Source of the DNA: Faecalibacterium sp. CAG:1138
GTDB lineage: Bacteria; Bacillota; Clostridia; Christensenellales; CAG-917
Direction of reading: 5' to 3'
Assembly: GCA_000434675.1 (NCBI GenBank)
Contig: HF988646.1
Location: 9,712 to 73,711, forward strand
Length of the DNA stretch: 64,000 bases
A program made the translations under genes and the position numbers. Under the pieces are notes generated by a model. It searched no databases. It was not told the DNA's origin and saw only the letters and a list, made by a program, of their open reading frames with translations. Of this stretch, positions 3,438 to 59,859 are shown one piece after another (positions within the stretch are counted from its first letter, which is position 1; every line of letters begins with the position of its first letter).

Positions 3438-4348
3438 TTTTCGCCTCCTTCCATAAGCTTCAGGAAGTAGCTTTCCGGATCGTCCTCCGTAAGCGACAGT
3501 TCCGTCGGAATGACGTTGTTGTCCACCAACGATTTCATCACAAACGGGACGTTATCGGTGAAATCGTAAAGATAAACATAGCCGTTTGTCATTTTATAAT
3601 TTTTAGTGCCAAGCACGTTTTCGAGCACGCGTATCACGCCCAAGCTGTCGGCGCAGCCGATTTTGACGGCTTTGGTCAGGCGAGTCTGAAGCTGCGAAAC
3701 GGTGAACTGATCCACCATTTTGCCGTTTGCGATGACGCCGTAAACCCCGGCAAGCTTGGTCAGCTCGCCTAAAATGTGGCTGCTTATAAATACAGTCACG
3801 CCTCTGCGGTTAAGCTCGAGCAAAAGATCTCTTATTTCCACGATTCCCGCAGGGTCCAGACCGTTTATCGGCTCGTCGAGCATCAGAAGCTTCGGTTCGC
3901 CGATAAGAGCCACGGCGATGCCGAGGCGCTGCTTCATGCCGAGAGAAAAGTTCTTTACTTTTTTATGATCTTTCGGATCGAGGCCCACTTTTATGAGCGC
4001 GTCTTCGGAAAGCTCTTTCGGCTCCAGTCCGAGTTGAAGCCTTCTGATTTCCATGTTTTCAAGAGCGGTCATATTGCCGTAGAAAGACGGCGATTCTATC
4101 AGGCATCCCATGTTCTTTCTGGCATTCACAAGTTCTTTTTTACCGCTACTTCCGAAAATCGCAATTTCGCCGGAATCGGGTGCGGCGAGGCCTCCGATAA
4201 GGCGCATTACGGTGGTTTTGCCCGCGCCGTTTTTGCCGATGAAGCCGTAAATTTCACCTTCTTTTATGGCAAGGCTGACGTTTTTGACAACGGCCTTGTC
4301 CTTATAAACCTTGGTAAGATTTGAGGCTTGTATCGCGTATTTTGCCAT
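3434..4348 (-). CDS. ABC transporter ATP-binding protein
   Basis: Walker A GKNGAGKTT, ABC signature LGMKQRL, Walker B LLMLDEP. Confidence 0.9.
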   Translation of the reverse strand: MAKYAIQASNLTKVYKDKAVVKNVSLAIKEGEIYGFIGKNGAGKTTVMRLIGGLAAPDSGEIAIFGSSGKKELVNARKNMGCLIESPSFYGNMTALENMEIRRLQLGLEPKELSEDALIKVGLDPKDHKKVKNFSLGMKQRLGIAVALIGEPKLLMLDEPINGLDPAGIVEIRDLLLELNRRGVTVFISSHILGELTKLAGVYGVIANGKMVDQFTVSQLQTRLTKAVKIGCADSLGVIRVLENVLGTKNYKMTNGYVYLYDFTDNVPFVMKSLVDNNVIPTELSLTEDDPESYFLKLMEGGEK

Positions 4349-7267: not shown

Positions 7268-8378
7268 CAATTTTTTCGATTTAAGGGCAAACTACGTCTT
7301 TTCGGAGGTTGCGCAGAAAGTTAAAGAATTTAAGGAGCAAAATCCCGATGTAAACCTTACCTCGTACGGCATAGGCGACGTTTGTTTTCCGCTGTCGAAA
7401 ACCGTCGTAACCGCGCTTGAAAATGCTGCGGCCGGTCTTGGCACCGACGACGGATTTTTGGGTTATCAGGACGAAGGCGGCATAAAAGCGCTGAAAGCCG
7501 CCGTTTCGAATTTCTACAAAAACCGCCGAAAAGTTTCCGTTTCCGAAAACGAAATTTTCGTTTCCGACGGTGCAAAAAGCGACATAGGCGGACTTCTGGA
7601 GCTGTTTTCGACAAGTTCCGTCGTGCTGGTTTCCGATCCCGTTTATCCCGCCTACGTCGATGCGGCCACCATTCGCGGCTTAGCCGTACAAACCGTTTCG
7701 GCGACTCCCGAAAATCGGTTTTTGCCGGAGCCTCCGGATTTTTCCGCCGACGTGATTTTTTTATGCTCGCCGTCAAATCCCACGGGTGCGACGTATGATT
7801 ATGCGGGGCTCGAAAAATGGGTGAGATATGCAAAAAAAGTCGGCGCGGTTATTCTTTTCGACGCGGCTTATGCCGAATTTTCGCCCGACGGTTTCCCTAA
7901 AAGCATCTACGAAATCGACGGTGCAAAAGAAGTTGCAATCGAAATTTCAAGCCTCAGCAAATCGCACGGCTTTACGGGCCTCAGATGCGGATGGAGCGTC
8001 GTTCCCGATGAGCTCGAAACGTCGGGCGTCAGACTCAACAAGTTCTGGCGGCGCAGACAGGCGGCAAGGTTCAACGGAGCCTCCGTTCTGGCACAGGCAG
8101 GTGCGGTGGCGGCGCTTTCCGAGGAAGGCTTGTCGGAAGCTTCCGTCTATATAAACCACTATAAGCGCAACGCCGAAGCACTGAAAAACCGACTTATAGA
8201 AGAAGGCTTGCAGGTTTTCGGCAGCGCGCCGTATCTTTGGGTGAAATGCCCAAGCGGGTTTACCGACGAAAGCTATTTCGATTATTGCCTGAGCCAAAAG
8301 CACGAAATCGTAACTCCGGGCAGCGGATTCGGAAGCTCGGGCAAAGAATTCGTCAGATACAGCTGTTTTTTCAGATAA
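7257..8378 (+). CDS. dapL: LL-diaminopimelate aminotransferase (class I aminotransferase)
   Basis: MINNNFFDLRANYVFSEVAQKV...YGIGDVCFPL is a DapL-type N-terminus, and SLSKSHGFTGLRCGW is the PLP-lysine motif. The gene lies adjacent to dapF. Confidence 0.75.
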   Translation: MINNNFFDLRANYVFSEVAQKVKEFKEQNPDVNLTSYGIGDVCFPLSKTVVTALENAAAGLGTDDGFLGYQDEGGIKALKAAVSNFYKNRRKVSVSENEIFVSDGAKSDIGGLLELFSTSSVVLVSDPVYPAYVDAATIRGLAVQTVSATPENRFLPEPPDFSADVIFLCSPSNPTGATYDYAGLEKWVRYAKKVGAVILFDAAYAEFSPDGFPKSIYEIDGAKEVAIEISSLSKSHGFTGLRCGWSVVPDELETSGVRLNKFWRRRQAARFNGASVLAQAGAVAALSEEGLSEASVYINHYKRNAEALKNRLIEEGLQVFGSAPYLWVKCPSGFTDESYFDYCLSQKHEIVTPGSGFGSSGKEFVRYSCFFR

Positions 8379-10191: not shown

Positions 10192-11070
10192 ATGATTTAT
10201 ATTGCCGGTGAAATTCTGGCCGACAGATTCGTTTTCGGCAACGATTGCACCACAAAAGTGGGTGGCGCGCCGTTCAACGCTGCCGCTTGGGCGGCAGACG
10301 GCGGCGCAAAAACGGTTTTCTACGGCGCAGTCGGTGGCGACGACGTCGGAAAAAAGGTTCTGGCCGATGCGTCAAAAACGAAAGTTCGGCTCTCGGTGGA
10401 CGTTTTGAAAGGTCATCGAACCACGGTTGCGCTTGTTTCGCTCTCCGCCGGCGGCGAGCGAAATTTCCGATTTTTGCGCGACGACACGGCCGAATTTAAG
10501 CTTTCCGTGCAAAAAATAAACATGTGCGCATTCGAAAAATGCAAAATTGCGCACTTGGGCAGTCTTATGCTCACAGAGATTGAAGGCAGGAAGTTTGCCG
10601 CCGATTTCGTCGCTTCTTCAAAAGAAAAACACAAAATCCTGTCTTTCGACTACAATTTCCGTGACGATCTGTATCCTTCGTTCGAAGCCTCGAAAGAGGT
10701 TTGCAAAAACGTCGTGGAATCGGCAGACGTTTTGAAATTTTCGGAAGATGAAATTTTGGCCTACACAAAAGCGGCCGACGTTTCGGGCGCACTGAAAGCA
10801 CTTTCCCAAAAGGACAGACTGGTGGTTGTAACCTTGGGCAAAAAGGGCAGCGCATATTCGTTCGGCGGCGAGCTCGGCTTTGTCGAAGCCGTTCCCGTTT
10901 CGGCGGTTGACACCACCGGTGCCGGCGACGCGTATATGGGGACTATGCTTGCGGGGCTTGACAAAACTGATTTCCCGGACGTGTCGATAAATGAAATTCA
11001 ATCGGTCCTCGAAGCCGCGTCCCGAAAGGGCGCCGAAGCCACCACATTTTACGGCGCGATAAAAATATGA
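10192..11070 (+). CDS. PfkB-family carbohydrate kinase (fructokinase-like)
   Basis: C-terminal DTTGAGDAYMG is the PfkB signature 2. 292 aa. Confidence 0.85.
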   Translation: MIYIAGEILADRFVFGNDCTTKVGGAPFNAAAWAADGGAKTVFYGAVGGDDVGKKVLADASKTKVRLSVDVLKGHRTTVALVSLSAGGERNFRFLRDDTAEFKLSVQKINMCAFEKCKIAHLGSLMLTEIEGRKFAADFVASSKEKHKILSFDYNFRDDLYPSFEASKEVCKNVVESADVLKFSEDEILAYTKAADVSGALKALSQKDRLVVVTLGKKGSAYSFGGELGFVEAVPVSAVDTTGAGDAYMGTMLAGLDKTDFPDVSINEIQSVLEAASRKGAEATTFYGAIKI

Positions 11071-11080
11071 AACTTTATAT

Positions 11081-11696
11081 TTTGAAAACAAAAAACGACG
11101 GATTTTTCCGTTTTATGTTGTTTGAGCAGGCAGGTGATAACAAGCAAAGCCGAGGAAGCGCTTGCATTTGTGAGGCGCGCGCAGGTATCCTTGCTCCAAA
11201 AACGGTGGCAAAGCCACGTGTTTCAAAGAAACAAAAAACGACGGAGCATTACGTTCTATGTTGTTTGAGCAGGCAGGTGATAACAAGCAAAGCCGAGGAA
11301 GCGCTTGCATTTGCGAGGCGCGCGCAGGTATCCTTGCTCCAAAAACGGTGGCGGAGCCACGAGTTTTGAAGAAATAGAAAAACGACGGAGATATCCGTTC
11401 TAGGTTGTTAGAGCAGGCAGGTGATAACAAGCAAAGCCGAGGAAGCGCTTGCATTTGCGAGGCGCGCGCAGGTATCCTTGCTCCAAAAACGGTGGCAAAG
11501 CCACGTGTTTCAAAGAAACAAAAAACGACGGAGCATTACGTTCTATGTTGTTTGAGCAGGCAGGTGATAACAAGCAAAGCCGAGGAAGCGCTTGCATTTG
11601 CGAGGCGCGCGCAGGTATCCTTGCTCCAAAAACGGTGGCGTAGCCGCGTGTTTTGAAGAAACAAAAAAACGACGGATTTTTCCGTCGTTTTGTTTT
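11081..11696. repeat. Tandem array: one partial plus four full copies of a 143/144-bp unit
   Basis: Unit starts (GAGCAGGCAGGTGATAACAAGC...) fall at 11124, 11267, 11411 and 11554. The copies are near-identical. Each unit holds a GC-rich segment, a GTGGC-AAA-GCCAC hairpin and a degenerate copy of the tRNA-Gly terminator hairpin. Confidence 0.95.
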
Positions 11697-11770
11697 TGGA
11701 GCAGGTGATGGGAATCGAACCCACAAATTCAGCTTGGGAAGCTGATGTTATGCCACTTAACTACACCTGC
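11697..11770 (-). tRNA. tRNA-Gly (anticodon CCC)
   Basis: Minus-strand sequence GCAGGTGTAGTTAAGTGGCATAACATCAGCTTCCCAAGCTGAATTTGTGGGTTCGATTCCCATCACCTGCTCCA folds by hand into a cloverleaf. The anticodon loop is TTCCCAA, the T-loop is TTCGATT, and CCA is encoded. Confidence 0.9.
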
Positions 11771-11909
11771 AAACGCAGTACTTATATTATACAATGTTTT
11801 TCAAAAAAAGCAAGCGGATTGCCGCATGGAAAAAAGCAGGACAAATGTTTTTTTAAAAATCACATGACATAATGAAATTAAACGGCGAAATAACCGCTTC
11901 GCTTTTCTG

Positions 11910-11938
11910 TTGCAAAAACGGCTCCTCGGTGGTATAAT
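11910..11938 (+). promoter_or_regulatory. Sigma-A type promoter for the membrane-protein gene
   Basis: TTGCAA, a 17-nt spacer, then TATAAT. Confidence 0.5.
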
Positions 11939-11960
11939 CGACATAGGAGCATCTGCGCAT

Positions 11961-12161
11961 ATGAACAAAATTTCAAAAACAATCTTATTTTCGTTGGCGT
12001 TTTTTCTGATGTCAAGCTTGACGGCATACGTCCTGAAATTTCTCCCCGAGCAGTCGTTTTGGTGCTATTTCGGCTCGGCAACCGCCGTTTTGGCCGGGGG
12101 GGGGGTGCTTTTATGGCCGCAAAAAACTGGCCGTGGGAGCCGTCCTTTTATGGCCGCTTAA
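11961..12161 (+). CDS. Membrane protein, 5' fragment ending shortly after a poly-G tract
   Basis: MNKISKTILFSLAFFLMSSLTAYVL is a signal/TM-like start with an AGGAG SD. The frame stops 54 nt after the G10 run. Confidence 0.4.
   Translation: MNKISKTILFSLAFFLMSSLTAYVLKFLPEQSFWCYFGSATAVLAGGGVLLWPQKTGRGSRPFMAA
12096..12105. repeat. Homopolymeric G(10) tract inside the coding sequence
   Basis: Counted directly: ggccGGGGGGGGGGtgc. Confidence 0.95.
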
Positions 12162-12669
12162 GGGCAAAGGGAAAGCCAAGCTTTCGGTGTTTTTCATAAA
12201 CGCCGTGGCAATGGGAGTGTATCTCCGTTCTTGGTATAAGCTGAGGGGGCTGGAAAATTCGCTTTGGGTACTTTTGTTGGTGGCCGTCGCCGCCGCGGCA
12301 GTTTTGACGGGGTACGCTTTGCTCATAAAAATCTGCGTTCTGCGCTTGCATTACAAGTGGTTTTTGTTGACGTTTTGCGTTTTGGGGCTTGCAGGGTACG
12401 TTACGCTTCTTATTCTTACCAAAACCGCATGGCTCTCCACCTTCGGATTTTACGGAATTTTGGTGATTGCCTTCATTTTGTCGCTTTCTGAGAAGGAAAC
12501 GAACGCCGATTCTTATTTCAATCACTTGGTTCTGGCGTCTTACAGCATAATCGTTTGCGCGGTCATAATTTTGATTATAGCCTTGGAGGGCGACTTTGAC
12601 GTGGCAGATTTCGACTTCGCGGTTGAGGCTCCCGACGCTGCCAAAAAAGAAAAGAAGCCTAAAGCGTAA
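12133..12669 (+). CDS. Polytopic membrane protein, 3' portion (GTG start or continuation of the upstream fragment)
   Basis: 178 aa with several hydrophobic spans and an acidic/lysine-rich tail. Its frame stays open back through the G tract. Confidence 0.55.
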   Translation: MGAVLLWPLKGKGKAKLSVFFINAVAMGVYLRSWYKLRGLENSLWVLLLVAVAAAAVLTGYALLIKICVLRLHYKWFLLTFCVLGLAGYVTLLILTKTAWLSTFGFYGILVIAFILSLSEKETNADSYFNHLVLASYSIIVCAVIILIIALEGDFDVADFDFAVEAPDAAKKEKKPKA

Positions 12670-20116: not shown

Positions 20117-20280
20117 ACCTCATATTTTGTCAACTAAAAGGCAAAACGGCTTGCAGCTTTGCGGCCGTTTTTTTCGTTCGGAAAATCTTTTTCGATAAGG
20201 CCGCGCGAAAAATTGCCGTTTGCACTTTTTCGGCAAAATGCGAAAGCTTCGGAAAAAGTCGAAAGTTTTTCGAAAACCTG

Positions 20281-59772: not shown

Positions 59773-59859
59773 TGGTGCGGGCAACAGGACTTGAACCTGC
59801 ACAGCCTTGCGACCATAAGAACCTGAATCTTACGCGTCTGCCAATTCCGCCATGCCCGC
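59773..59859 (-). tRNA. tRNA-Leu (anticodon CAG), class II with a long variable arm
   Basis: Minus-strand sequence GCGGGCATGGCGGAATTGGCAGACGCGTAAGATTCAGGTTCTTATGGTCGCAAGGCTGTGCAGGTTCAAGTCCTGTTGCCCGCACCA was folded by hand. The anticodon loop is TTCAGGT. Confidence 0.9.

What the first reader, a model, noticed from the sequence alone, without database searches (positions are those of the whole stretch)
11081..11770. 143-bp tandem repeat array in exact register with tRNA-Gly(CCC)
Four full copies start at 11124, 11267, 11411 and 11554, and are preceded by a partial copy from about 11081. The next unit would begin at 11697, which is precisely the 3' end of the tRNA-Gly gene. Each unit begins with TGAGCAGGCAGGTGAT, echoing the tRNA 3' end on this strand (TGGAGCAGGTGAT). 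Each unit ends with a decayed copy of the tRNA's terminator hairpin (ACGACGGA-TTTTT-TCCGTCGT). Read on the tRNA strand, each unit has a 5' GGAGCAAGG that can pair with its 3' CCTGCTC. It also has a TTCCTCG 7-nt loop and two terminator-like hairpins, but no T-loop or D-arm. It is therefore neither a tRNA nor a CRISPR array. It may be an sRNA gene array, a tRNA-derived satellite, or scars of repeated recombination at the tRNA 3' end.
Basis: seen in the sequence. Interest (0 to 1): 0.6.

Follow-up and report, generated by a model that had tools for sequence, protein, structure and literature searches.

The report
tRNA-linked repeat array behind tRNA-Gly
A 143-bp unit repeated four times directly behind a glycine tRNA gene of a human-gut Clostridia species is real, and it has the same build as the little-understood "tRNA-linked repeats" described in E. 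coli in 1978, which makes it a new example of a known oddity and not a new kind of element.

Summary
There are four 143/144-bp units plus a 38-bp partial unit at 11086-11696, and the next period would start at 11697, the last base of tRNA-Gly(CCC) (11697-11770, minus strand).

Read on the tRNA strand, each unit has three parts:
- a spacer with terminator-like hairpins, copied from the tRNA's own terminator;
- a ~60-nt segment with no detectable homology to anything;
- a degenerate copy of the tRNA 3' end, ATCACCTGC[CTGC]TCA against ATCACCTGCTCCA.

The 74-nt "core" (segment plus 3' copy) is almost invariant: 1 difference among the 4 copies and 5 variable sites in 19 distinct units from about 15 strains. 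The spacers differ by about 20%. Independent assemblies of the same species (Faecalibacterium sp. CAG:1138) show 1, 2, at least 3, at least 3.7 and 4 units, always at this locus.

The unit matches no Rfam family. It is not a tRNA, not a CRISPR array and not a dispersed repeat, and it has no match in the phage or plasmid collections or the viral contigs.

The architecture matches E. coli tRNA-linked repeats (TLRs; tyrT/tyrV 178 bp x 3.1; rrn T1-rrB-T2). I found similar units behind 6 of 292 tRNA genes in other Clostridia.

The most likely reading is a lineage-specific TLR-type array that expands and contracts by unequal recombination. Its conserved core would be made at low level by read-through from the tRNA promoter. 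Its function is unknown, as it is for TLRs in general.

The parts
11697..11770 (-). tRNA-Gly(CCC) gene with encoded CCA. Its last 13 nt (ATCACCTGCTCCA) are the template of the 3' tag carried by every repeat unit.
   Evidence: ARAGORN; Rfam tRNA 69.4 bits, E = 1.4e-14.
11786..11793 (-). Probable extended -10 box (TGTATAAT) of the tRNA-Gly promoter. It is the only promoter-like element upstream of the array on the tRNA strand. Inferred from the sequence.
   Evidence: Read. The consensus scan, which requires a -35 box, found no promoter inside the array on either strand.
11628..11696 (-). Spacer S1, next to the tRNA. It holds the intact bidirectional intrinsic terminator T1 (11666-11691), a small hairpin H3 (11650-11662) and hairpin H2 (11635-11647).
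   Evidence: Terminator scan. The intact arm TCCGTCGTTTTGTTTTT is present in the tRNA-proximal spacer of every strain.
11554..11627 (-). Core 1 (74 nt). Its 5' GGAGCAAGG (11619-11627) is complementary to its 3' tRNA-like tag ATCACCTGCCTGCTC (11554-11568).
   Evidence: Exact pattern match; fold with a closing helix.
11485..11553 (-). Spacer S2. The T1 copy is decayed, while hairpin H2 with its CGTTTTT tail is kept.
   Evidence: Alignments; terminator-like site 11504-11492.
11411..11484 (-). Core 2
   Evidence: 0 mismatches.
11341..11410 (-). Spacer S3, with two terminator-like hairpins (11398-11385 and 11360-11348).
   Evidence: alignment.
11267..11340 (-). Core 3
   Evidence: 0 mismatches.
11198..11266 (-). 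Spacer S4, identical to S2; the whole unit it belongs to is 99.3% identical to unit 2 (the single difference is in the core). This is the 287-bp higher-order repeat.
   Evidence: unit 143/143 with 1 mismatch.
11124..11197 (-). Core 4, next to the kinase gene. It carries the single difference among the four cores: on the plus strand TTTGTGAGG where the other three have TTTGCGAGG (minus strand, A for G in CCTCGCAAA). The same variant is in the kinase-proximal unit of most (11 of 14) strains whose kinase-proximal unit could be read.
   Evidence: 1 mismatch.
11086..11123 (-). Partial spacer S5, a copy of the terminator module only. On the plus strand it probably serves as the terminator of the PfkB kinase gene.
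   Evidence: nhmmer match to unit positions 106-143; terminator-like sites on both strands at 11097-11112.
10192..11070 (+). PfkB-family sugar kinase gene, last gene of a convergent operon that includes an alpha-galactosidase. It marks the far boundary of the array.
   Evidence: Pfam PF00294, E = 3.6e-44. The exact protein is CCY04711.1, putative fructokinase, of Faecalibacterium sp. CAG:1138.

Best explanation
This is a lineage-specific array of the tRNA-linked-repeat (TLR) type.

**Layout (shown).** On the tRNA strand the locus reads: tRNA-Gly(CCC), then [terminator module, then a 74-nt core that ends in a degenerate copy of the tRNA 3' end] four times, then one more terminator module. This is the build of the E. 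coli TLRs: tyrT/tyrV, 178 bp x 3.1, overlapping the tRNA 3' end by 19 nt; and rrnB, 5S-T1-rrB-T2.

**Origin and dynamics (inferred).** The first unit arose from a duplication whose left breakpoint lay inside the tRNA 3' end. That accounts for the exact register. Unequal homologous recombination or slippage between units then expands and contracts the array. This fits the 1 to at least 4 units seen among strains and the 287-bp higher-order repeat.

**Expression (inferred, by analogy with E. coli RrA/B/F and the tyrT TLR RNA RttR).**
- The cores have no promoter of their own.
- They would be transcribed at low level by read-through of the tRNA terminator.
- The 5' end of each core pairs with its tRNA-like 3' tag to form a closing helix.
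- The tag would direct 3' trimming by the enzymes that mature the tRNA 3' end, and the next hairpin would stop transcription.

**Constraint (shown) and function (not known).** The near-invariance of the core next to about 20% divergent spacers argues that the core sequence is under constraint. That is consistent with a small RNA of still unknown function. No function is known for most TLRs either.
For: **Anatomy and register:**

**Link to the tRNA:** the 9-nt block ATCACCTGC sits directly 5' of the spacer homology both in the tRNA and in every unit.

**Core against spacer:**
- In the window there is 1 difference in the 74-nt core, against about 14-20 per 69-nt spacer.
- Across 19 distinct units from about 15 assemblies, 5 of 75 core columns vary against about 25 of 70 spacer columns.
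- Diversity among strains is 0.020 for the core, 0.045 at kinase third codon positions and 0.066-0.099 for the spacers.

**Age of the array:** positional orthology is largely kept, since the kinase-proximal unit carries T at TTTG[T]GAGG in most strains (11 of 14). The array is therefore older than the strain split.

**Copy number:** 1, 2, at least 3, at least 3.7 and 4 units in independent assemblies.

**Strand:** terminator-like hairpins with T-runs lie mostly on the tRNA strand, 6 against 3 inside the array. The two variable sites in the closing helix stay paired as G-U on the tRNA strand, so 100% of cells are paired.

**The known class:**
- TLR definition and features come from PMC8144298.
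- The E. coli tyrV array, 178 bp x 3.1, reaches 19 nt into the tRNA.
- Its unit folds with GGGGAAGGAU paired to the 3' copy AUCCUUCCCC.

**Same architecture elsewhere in Clostridia:** 6 of 292 tRNA genes have a copy of their last 12 nt within 300 nt downstream on the same strand, against 1 upstream and 1 in reverse complement.
- L050 has 174 bp x 2.1 behind tRNA-Pro, with conserved cores and replaced terminators.
- L024, L085 and L095 share a core that shows compensatory pairs.
Against: - The 3' tag is shorter and less exact than the TLR hallmark: 9 contiguous nt, or 12 of 13 with a 4-nt insertion, against 18-19 identical nt.
- No expression data exist for this locus.
- T1 is a strong terminator (11 pairs followed by a T-run), so read-through may be rare.
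- No promoter-like site lies in the array.
- The core folds no better than shuffled sequence on either strand (z = +0.88 and +0.45).
- There is no compensatory change in 9 distinct cores, and one predicted inner helix is broken in 6 of 9.
- Some G-U against A-C evidence favours the plus strand: helix 2 and the decayed terminator arms.
- The family is confined to one species-level lineage. It is absent from the 185,579 species-representative genomes and from relatives with 70% and 59% kinase identity.
- Core conservation could also come from biased gene conversion instead of selection.
Confidence: 0.55

Rival explanations
1. It is a neutral minisatellite. A tandem duplication in the non-coding gap between two convergent genes happened to have one breakpoint inside the tRNA 3' end. 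Copy number drifts by slippage or unequal crossover, and there is no RNA product or function. The uniform cores reflect gene conversion or recent amplification.
For: - It is restricted to one species.
- There is no promoter.
- There is no fold stability and no covariation.
- Many strains seem to manage with one unit.
- TLRs in E. coli still have no demonstrated function.
- Core diversity among strains (0.020) is similar to that of the neighbouring promoter-containing intergenic region (0.017).
Against: - Paralogous units differ by about 20% in the spacers but by no more than about 1% in the cores. Spacer types and the kinase-proximal core variant are shared between strains, so amplification is not recent, and homogenisation would have to spare the spacers.
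- The same architecture (terminator, conserved core, tRNA 3' copy, terminator) recurs independently behind other tRNAs in Clostridia and in E. coli, in some cases with compensatory changes.
Confidence: 0.25
2. The units are scars or miniature cis-mobilisable remnants of integrative elements that use the 3' end of tRNA-Gly as their attachment site. Each integration restores the tRNA and leaves a displaced partial 3' end, and the remnants have accreted in tandem.
For: - tRNA 3' ends are classic attachment sites (established knowledge; Williams 2002, recalled from memory).
- One strain (L135, GCA_034181895.1) carries a 1.2-kb AT-rich insert with iterons at both ends, placed exactly at the CCA end of this tRNA, between the tRNA and the array.
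- In L009 the duplicated block is exactly the last 18 nt of the tRNA, starting in the T-loop.
Against: - All units are copies of one another, so they come from amplification and not from independent integrations.
- The tRNA-like block is only 9 nt contiguous, with a 4-nt insertion.
- No integrase lies within about 5 kb on either side.
- The core is absent from the phage, plasmid and viral-contig collections.
- The L135 insert duplicates only CCA/TGG, not the tRNA 3' block, and has no similarity to the units.
Confidence: 0.1
3. The functional strand is the plus strand. The array would be the 3' untranslated region of the alpha-galactosidase / PfkB kinase operon, acting as an mRNA-stabilising hairpin array or as a source of 3'-UTR-derived small RNAs. 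The resemblance to the antisense tRNA end would be incidental.
For: - The array starts 16 nt after the kinase stop codon, and its first hairpin is only a weak terminator on the plus strand.
- Several substitutions keep pairing as G-U only on the plus strand: the decayed terminator arms, H3, and the TGCG/CGCA helix.
- The plus-strand unit fold is slightly better than shuffled sequence (z = -1.10).
Against: - T-runs follow the hairpins on the minus strand, not the plus strand.
- The closing-helix variants are compatible only with the minus strand.
- All analogous units in other taxa and in E. coli are oriented with the tRNA and carry their terminators on the tRNA strand.
- z = -1.10 is not significant.
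Confidence: 0.07
4. It is an assembly artefact: a single unit wrongly expanded by the assembler.
For: - The window comes from a short-read metagenomic species assembly.
- Units 2 and 4 are 99.3% identical.
- A suspicious 37-nt insertion with a G10 run lies 400 bp away.
- Many assemblies show one unit, and several contigs break inside the array.
Against: Independent assemblies from other samples contain 2 units (L004, L135), at least 2 (L005), at least 3 (L130) and at least 3.7 (L133), each with distinct spacer variants that a collapsed or looped assembly would not produce. Even the one-unit state already has the TLR layout: tRNA, T1, core with 3' tag, second terminator.
Confidence: 0.03

Closest known systems
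E. coli tRNA-linked repeats (TLRs), type case tyrT/tyrV 178-bp repeats with the RttR (rtT) RNA and the tpr ORF
   Same: - Both lie directly downstream of a tRNA gene on the same strand.
- Both are tandem units of about 150-180 bp, 1-5 per locus.
- Each unit ends in a copy of the tRNA 3' end, so the array is in register with the gene. TRF gives 178 bp x 3.1, reaching 19 nt into tyrV.
- An upstream segment of the unit pairs with the 3' copy (compare).
- Function is unknown.
   Different: - There is no sequence similarity, and Rfam rtT was not hit even at E <= 10.
- The tag here is 9 contiguous nt, or 12 of 13 with a 4-nt insertion, and has lost CCA. In E. coli it is 18-19 identical nt.
- Every unit here carries intrinsic-terminator-like hairpins.
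- The host is a gut Clostridia species, and the family is confined to it.
rrA/rrB/rrF small RNAs between terminators T1 and T2 of E. coli rrnA/B/D (TLR family members; Stenum et al. 2021, PMC8144298)
   Same: A conserved core is sandwiched between two terminators. Its 3' end repeats the 3' end of the upstream stable RNA at a spacing of 150 bp. It has no promoter of its own. [quoted passage not shown]
   Different: Those units follow 5S rRNA, are single units and not arrays, are conserved across Enterobacterales, and bind Hfq and CsrA in vitro. None of this was tested here.
3'ETS-leuZ, a small RNA from a tRNA 3' external transcribed spacer
   Same: It is a regulatory RNA released from the trailer of a tRNA transcript by the tRNA-processing machinery (as summarised).
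   Different: It lies before the operon terminator, has no repeated tRNA 3' end and is not tandem.
Partial tRNA 3' ends left at attL/attR by integrative elements, including tandem accretion of cis-mobilisable elements
   Same: There is a direct repeat of a tRNA 3' segment downstream of an intact tRNA gene, and this same site is used by a 1.2-kb insert in one strain.
   Different: There is no integrase, the units are only 143 bp, all units are paralogues of each other, the identity block is short and interrupted, and there is no phage or plasmid match.
CRISPR arrays
   Same: Conserved repeats alternate with more variable intervening segments.
   Different: The 'repeat' is 74 nt and the 'spacers' are homologous to each other (about 80% identical) and are terminator hairpins. 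No cas genes were seen among the genes identified around it.

Membership tests
tRNA-linked repeats (TLR; Egan & Landy 1978, Rudd 1999, as described in PMC8144298) | Located in a tRNA or rRNA operon, immediately downstream of the stable-RNA gene and in the same orientation. | tested here: met
   The array begins at the last base of tRNA-Gly(CCC), and the tRNA-like tag is on the tRNA strand.
tRNA-linked repeats (TLR) | 18-19 bp at the 3' end of each repeat are identical to the 3' end of the upstream tRNA or rRNA. | tested here: not met
   The strict criterion fails. Only 9 contiguous nt (ATCACCTGC) are identical. With a 4-nt insertion (CTGC), 12 of the last 13 tRNA nt align, and CCA has become CAA. 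The principle of a 3' tag copied from the tRNA, in register, is met.
tRNA-linked repeats (TLR) | One to five units per locus, with a period of about 150-180 bp. | tested here: met
   Period 143-145 bp. Independent assemblies show 1, 2, at least 3, at least 3.7 and 4 units.
tRNA-linked repeats (TLR) | Transcribed as part of the tRNA/rRNA primary transcript and released by processing. | not testable with these tools
   No expression data are available. The only indirect pointers are the lack of an internal promoter and hairpins with T-runs on the tRNA strand.
Rfam rtT RNA / E. coli TLR sequence family | Sequence and structure homology to the enterobacterial TLR units. | tested here: not met
   Rfam 15 scan of 10500-12500 at E <= 10 gave only the tRNA and chance-level hits.
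tRNA or tRNA pseudogene | Cloverleaf with D and T arms, or detectable homology to a tRNA over its length. | tested here: not met
   ARAGORN finds nothing consistent in the cores, even at -ps70/-ps80. Alignment to tRNA-Gly outside the 3' block is at shuffle level: 928 of 2000 shuffles score as well.
CRISPR array | Short (about 24-48 nt) identical repeats separated by unrelated spacers of similar length. | tested here: not met
   The conserved block is 74 nt, and the intervening 69 nt are homologous between units.
Dispersed repeat / MITE / REP-type element | Multiple copies at unrelated genomic sites. | tested here: not met
   There is no other copy in the 64-kb window. The metagenome scan found only this locus, including a single site on a 303-kb contig of the same species. 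There is none in the 120 tRNA-Gly loci of other species.
Integrative-element attachment-site scar | A direct repeat of the attachment core flanking DNA of mobile origin, usually with an integrase. | tested here: inconclusive
   No integrase lies nearby and there is no phage, plasmid or viral match. However, the site is used by a 1.2-kb insert in L135.

The most novel reading that the evidence does not exclude
TLR-type modules may be a general class of small RNAs embedded in tRNA operons, present across phyla (Enterobacteria and Clostridia at least). The module is a conserved core closed by pairing between its 5' end and a copy of the upstream tRNA's 3' end, placed between two terminators. The tRNA-like 3' tag would recruit the tRNA 3'-maturation machinery. 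The tag and its complement could also compete with the tRNA's own acceptor stem in read-through transcripts. Output of the module would then follow tRNA-operon transcription, and so growth rate. The CAG:1138 array would be an amplified case, varying in copy number between strains.
Probability: 0.2. Interest if true: 0.6.

Novelty: new member of a known kind. Interest (0 to 1): 0.38.

Why it matters
tRNA-linked repeats have been known in E. coli since 1978. They are still without a function, apart from in-vitro Hfq/CsrA binding by three rRNA-linked members.

This array has the same architecture in an uncultured gut Clostridia species, with a constrained core, fast-evolving terminators and strain-level variation in copy number. 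Analogous single or double units also sit behind about 2% of sampled Clostridial tRNA genes.

Together these suggest the phenomenon is not an enterobacterial curiosity. It looks like a recurrent outcome, or a recurrent use, of tRNA 3'-end duplication. That would give comparative material, namely independent families with covariation, for finally testing whether TLRs are functional RNAs.

For this window alone the finding is modest. It is a locus-specific repeat that breaks short-read assemblies and should not be annotated as coding sequence, as happened in one public MAG (a genome binned from metagenome reads), where ORFs were called inside the array region of L135.

Tried and rejected
- **Rfam.** All 4227 families at E <= 10 over 10500-12500 gave only the tRNA. 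Five TLR-like loci from other species gave tRNAs and one FMN riboswitch.
- **tRNA detection.** ARAGORN with relaxed thresholds, and in intron, tmRNA and mitochondrial modes, found nothing consistent in the cores.
- **Homology of the core to tRNA-Gly beyond the 3' block.** At shuffle level on both strands.
- **Dispersed copies.** nhmmer and blastn-short over the window found none.
- **Core pattern in the 185,579 species-representative genomes.** 0 hits.
- **Metagenome scan.** 2 true hits, both at this locus, and 1 chance hit in a high-GC contig, L003.
- **Viral contigs, phages, plasmids.** No match to the unit, to other TLR-like cores or to the L135 insert. The tRNA 3' end occurs in viral contigs only inside complete tRNA genes.
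- **Promoters.** None inside the array on either strand.
- **Fold stability.** Not significant for the unit or the core on either strand.
- **Covariation.** None among 9 distinct cores.
- **Strand assignment from G-U against A-C.** The evidence conflicts between helices.
- **Coding potential.** ORFs run through the units, but the period is not a multiple of 3, I saw no Shine-Dalgarno sequence on reading the region, and the core is conserved at all positions. Coding was rejected by inspection.
- **Synteny in more distant relatives.** At 70% and 59% kinase identity there is no tRNA or array after the kinase gene.
- **Proteins of the L135 insert.** No Pfam, PADLOC or PHROG family.
Full report
**Observation**

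The tandem array is real. TRF reports one array at 11086-11676 with period 143, 4.1 copies, 92% matches and score 1008, plus a 287-bp higher-order period at 95%. ARAGORN and Rfam place tRNA-Gly(CCC) at 11697-11770 on the minus strand.

A 74-nt block occurs four times, at 11124-11197, 11267-11340, 11411-11484 and 11554-11627, with at most one mismatch. None is expected by chance. [quoted passage not shown] A fifth, partial unit covering the terminator module only lies at 11086-11122.

**Anatomy**

Read on the tRNA strand, the locus is tRNA-Gly, S1, C1, S2, C2, S3, C3, S4, C4, S5(partial). It is followed 16 nt later by the stop codon of a convergent PfkB sugar-kinase gene (10192-11070).

S is a roughly 69-nt spacer. 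In S1 it holds:
- the tRNA's strong bidirectional intrinsic terminator (11666-11691, 11 pairs);
- a small A/T hairpin;
- a 5-bp GTGGC/GCCAC hairpin followed by CGTTTTT.

C is the 74-nt core GGAGCAAGG...GCTTGTT-ATCACCTGCCTGCTC.
- Its last 15-17 nt are a degenerate copy of the tRNA 3' end: ATCACCTGC[CTGC]TCA against ATCACCTGCTCCA.
- Its first 9 nt are complementary to that tag. The predicted fold is therefore a closing helix, GAGCA(A)GG / CC-UGCUC, around two weak inner hairpins.
- Outside the 3' block the core has no similarity to the tRNA beyond chance.
- Relaxed ARAGORN runs find no tRNA-like fold.

**Pattern of variation**

Within the window the four cores differ at one position, whereas the spacers differ at about 20% of positions.

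The window's proteins are identical to those of Faecalibacterium sp. CAG:1138 (taxid 1262896). I recovered the same locus from about 20 further assemblies of this species.

Among 19 distinct units, 5 of 75 core columns vary, against about 25 of 70 spacer columns. Nucleotide diversity among strains is:

| Region | Diversity |
|---|---|
| Core | 0.020 |
| Kinase third codon positions | 0.045 |
| tRNA-side intergenic region | 0.017 |
| Spacers | 0.066-0.099 |

Spacer variation is concentrated in hairpin loops and in one arm of the internal terminator copies. The tRNA-proximal spacer keeps the intact terminator in every strain.

Spacer types recur in different strains, and the kinase-proximal core variant (T in TTTG[T]GAGG) recurs in most of them (11 of 14). 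The array therefore predates strain divergence and has not simply been homogenised unit by unit.

The copy number seen is:
- 1 in many short-read contigs, which may be collapsed;
- 2 in L004 and L135;
- at least 2 in L005;
- at least 3 in L130, which has a scaffold gap;
- at least 3.7 in L133, which ends at a contig end;
- 4 in the window.

Several contigs end inside the array. The tandem arrangement is thus not an artefact, although the exact count of four rests on one short-read assembly. That assembly also has a suspicious 37-nt insertion with a G10 run 400 bp away.

**What it is not**

- There is no Rfam family at E <= 10.
- It is not a tRNA.
- It is not a CRISPR array, because the intervening segments are homologous to each other.
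- It is not dispersed. There is no other copy in the window. The metagenome scan found only this locus, including a single site on a 303-kb contig of the species. There is none in 120 tRNA-Gly loci of other species, and the core is absent from the species-representative genome collection.
- There is no phage, plasmid or viral-contig match.
- There is no internal promoter-like site on either strand.
- The fold is no more stable than shuffled sequence.
- There is no compensatory substitution among nine distinct cores.
- Relatives with 70% and 59% kinase identity lack both the tRNA and the array at this position.

**Closest known class**

The build is that of the tRNA-linked repeats (TLRs) of E. 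coli. According to Stenum et al. 2021 (PMC8144298), TLRs were first described by Egan and Landy in 1978 and catalogued by Rudd in 1999.
- There are 22 TLRs at ten loci in K-12, with one to five per locus.
- They always lie in tRNA or rRNA operons.
- In every case 18-19 bp of the 3' end is identical to the 3' end of the upstream stable-RNA gene.
- They have no known function, except that rrA/B/F are made by read-through of T1, are processed, and bind Hfq and CsrA in vitro. rrA/B/F lie between T1 and T2 of three rrn operons, where the repeated 3' end recurs at a spacing of 150 bp.
- The authors suggest the repeated 3' end is recognised by the RNase that cuts the upstream RNA.

I checked the type case directly. 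Downstream of tyrV in MG1655, TRF finds 178 bp x 3.1 ending 19 nt inside the tRNA, with rttR and tpr annotated in the first unit. The unit folds with GGGGAAGGAU paired to the 3' copy AUCCUUCCCC. This is the same feature as here: the 5' part of the unit pairs with the tRNA-like tag.

The present array differs in four ways:
- its sequence is unrelated;
- the tag is shorter and interrupted (9 contiguous nt, or 12 of 13 with a 4-nt insertion);
- every unit contains intrinsic-terminator-like hairpins;
- the host is different.

It is therefore not a member of the E. coli sequence family, and it fails the strict 18-19-bp criterion. It is the same kind of object.

**The architecture recurs in Clostridia**

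I fetched 120 loci by the tRNA-Gly 3' half. Among the 292 tRNA genes they contain, six have a copy of their own last 12 nt (at most 1 mismatch) within 300 nt downstream on the same strand and outside any tRNA gene. One has such a copy upstream and one in reverse complement. The cases are:
- **L009:** 115 bp x 1.9, with an exact 18-nt copy plus a terminator copy.
- **L026:** a core homologous to that of L009.
- **L024 and L085, plus L095:** L095 was found in the earlier tRNA-Gly-only scan. All three lie behind tRNA-Gly(TCC) and share a core of about 100 nt with compensatory pairs.
- **L050:** behind tRNA-Pro, 174 bp x 2.1. The cores are about 90% identical, while the two terminators are entirely different sequences that both still form hairpins with T-runs.
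- **L058:** a long hairpin closed by the tRNA 3' copy, z = -3.25.

None matches Rfam. In all of them the terminators sit on the tRNA strand. That, together with the terminator-site count and the G-U-compatible closing-helix variants, is my reason for taking the minus strand as the sense strand in the window. The evidence from single substitutions is mixed.

**Most likely mechanism**

Shown:
- the layout and the register;
- the tag copied from the tRNA;
- the constrained core against free-running spacers;
- copy-number polymorphism;
- restriction to this locus.

Inferred:
1. The founding event was a duplication with one breakpoint in the tRNA 3' end.
2. Unequal recombination between units changes copy number, and the 287-bp higher-order repeat is a trace of this.
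3. The cores are transcribed by read-through of T1 from the tRNA promoter. A TGTATAAT box lies at 11786-11793 on the minus strand.
4. The transcripts are closed by the 5'/3' helix, trimmed at the tRNA-like tag and stopped at the next hairpin.
5. Core conservation reflects selection on an RNA whose function is unknown.

A fold of tRNA + S1 + C1 has z = -5.31. Much of that stability comes from the tRNA and the terminator, but the fold also shows two alternative pairings. The tRNA 3' end plus trailer (CCUGCUCCAAAAAC) pairs with the 5' edge of the core (GUUUUUGGAGCAAGG). The tRNA 5' strand pairs with the core's CACCUGC. Read-through transcripts could therefore interfere with, or sense, tRNA maturation. 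This is speculation.

**Rival explanations**

- **Neutral minisatellite (0.25).** This fits the lack of promoter, fold stability and covariation, and the species restriction. It does not explain why paralogues keep identical cores while their spacers diverge, or why the architecture recurs elsewhere.
- **Integrative-element scars (0.10).** In L135 a 1.2-kb AT-rich insert with four iterons of about 20 bp at each end and two ORFs of unknown family sits exactly at the CCA end of this tRNA. The site is therefore recombinogenic. However, the units are paralogues of each other, no integrase is nearby, and nothing matches mobile-element collections.
- **Plus-strand 3'-UTR element of the sugar operon (0.07).** It is supported by some G-U patterns only.
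- **Assembly artefact (0.03).**

**Verdict**

The object is a new, species-restricted member of a known but poorly understood kind, tRNA-linked repeats. Interest is moderate (0.38). The window itself adds one more example without function. The wider pattern seen in passing in Clostridia could make the old TLR question testable by comparative analysis.

Noticed in passing
window 12091-12127: A 37-nt insertion (a G10 run plus an imperfect copy of the following ~27 nt) is absent from other strains (L004, L129). It frameshifts a membrane-protein gene of 221-223 aa that is intact elsewhere, splitting it into ORFs 11961-12161 and 12133-12669. It is probably a local assembly or sequencing error, or a strain-specific pseudogene.
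   Followed up: partly
L135 3724-4936 (GCA_034181895.1, JAXFMN010000003.1): A 1.2-kb AT-rich insert sits exactly at the CCA end of the same tRNA-Gly, between the tRNA and the repeat array. Only CCA/TGG is duplicated. One end has four TGCACACCCCT iterons and the other has four CTATCGTTTTTTTATAG iterons, with about 20-22 bp between successive copies. It carries two ORFs (158 and 64 aa) with no significant Pfam, PADLOC or PHROG match, and it supplies a new terminator for the tRNA. There is no phage match.
   Followed up: partly
L009 1332-1544; L026 about 1214-1370; L024, L085, L095 (100-135 nt downstream of tRNA-Gly); L050 3453-3818; L058 about 120-250: TLR-like units lie behind other Clostridial tRNA genes: a terminator, then a core of about 60-110 nt, then a 12-22-nt copy of that tRNA's 3' end, often followed by a second terminator. 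Six of 292 tRNA genes have one, against 1 and 1 in the controls. L024, L085 and L095 share a core with compensatory pairs. L050 keeps its cores but has replaced its terminators. None is in Rfam.
   Followed up: partly
L015, downstream of tRNA-Gly (locus end near 8000): After the tRNA terminator there is an inverted copy of the tRNA T-arm/3' end (GATGGGAATCGAAC). The locus is cut off before a possible direct copy.
   Followed up: no
window 11554-11770 (minus strand transcript model): In a fold of tRNA + spacer 1 + core 1, the tRNA 3' end and trailer pair with the 5' edge of the core, and the tRNA 5' acceptor strand pairs with the core's CACCUGC (z = -5.31, though much of the stability comes from the tRNA and terminator). 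The tRNA acceptor stem may therefore face competing pairings in read-through transcripts.
   Followed up: no
window 4094-4138 and 20229-20265: There are two short tandem repeats (periods 20 and 19, about 2 copies, low TRF scores of 55 and 53). I did not examine them.
   Followed up: no
window 59773-59859: The second tRNA gene of the window, tRNA-Leu(CAG) on the minus strand, has no copy of its 3' end within 300 nt downstream.
   Followed up: yes
L135 3376-3741 and neighbouring calls: In a public MAG (a genome binned from metagenome reads), a 121-aa protein-coding gene was called across the repeat units. Such ORFs are almost certainly spurious.
   Followed up: no
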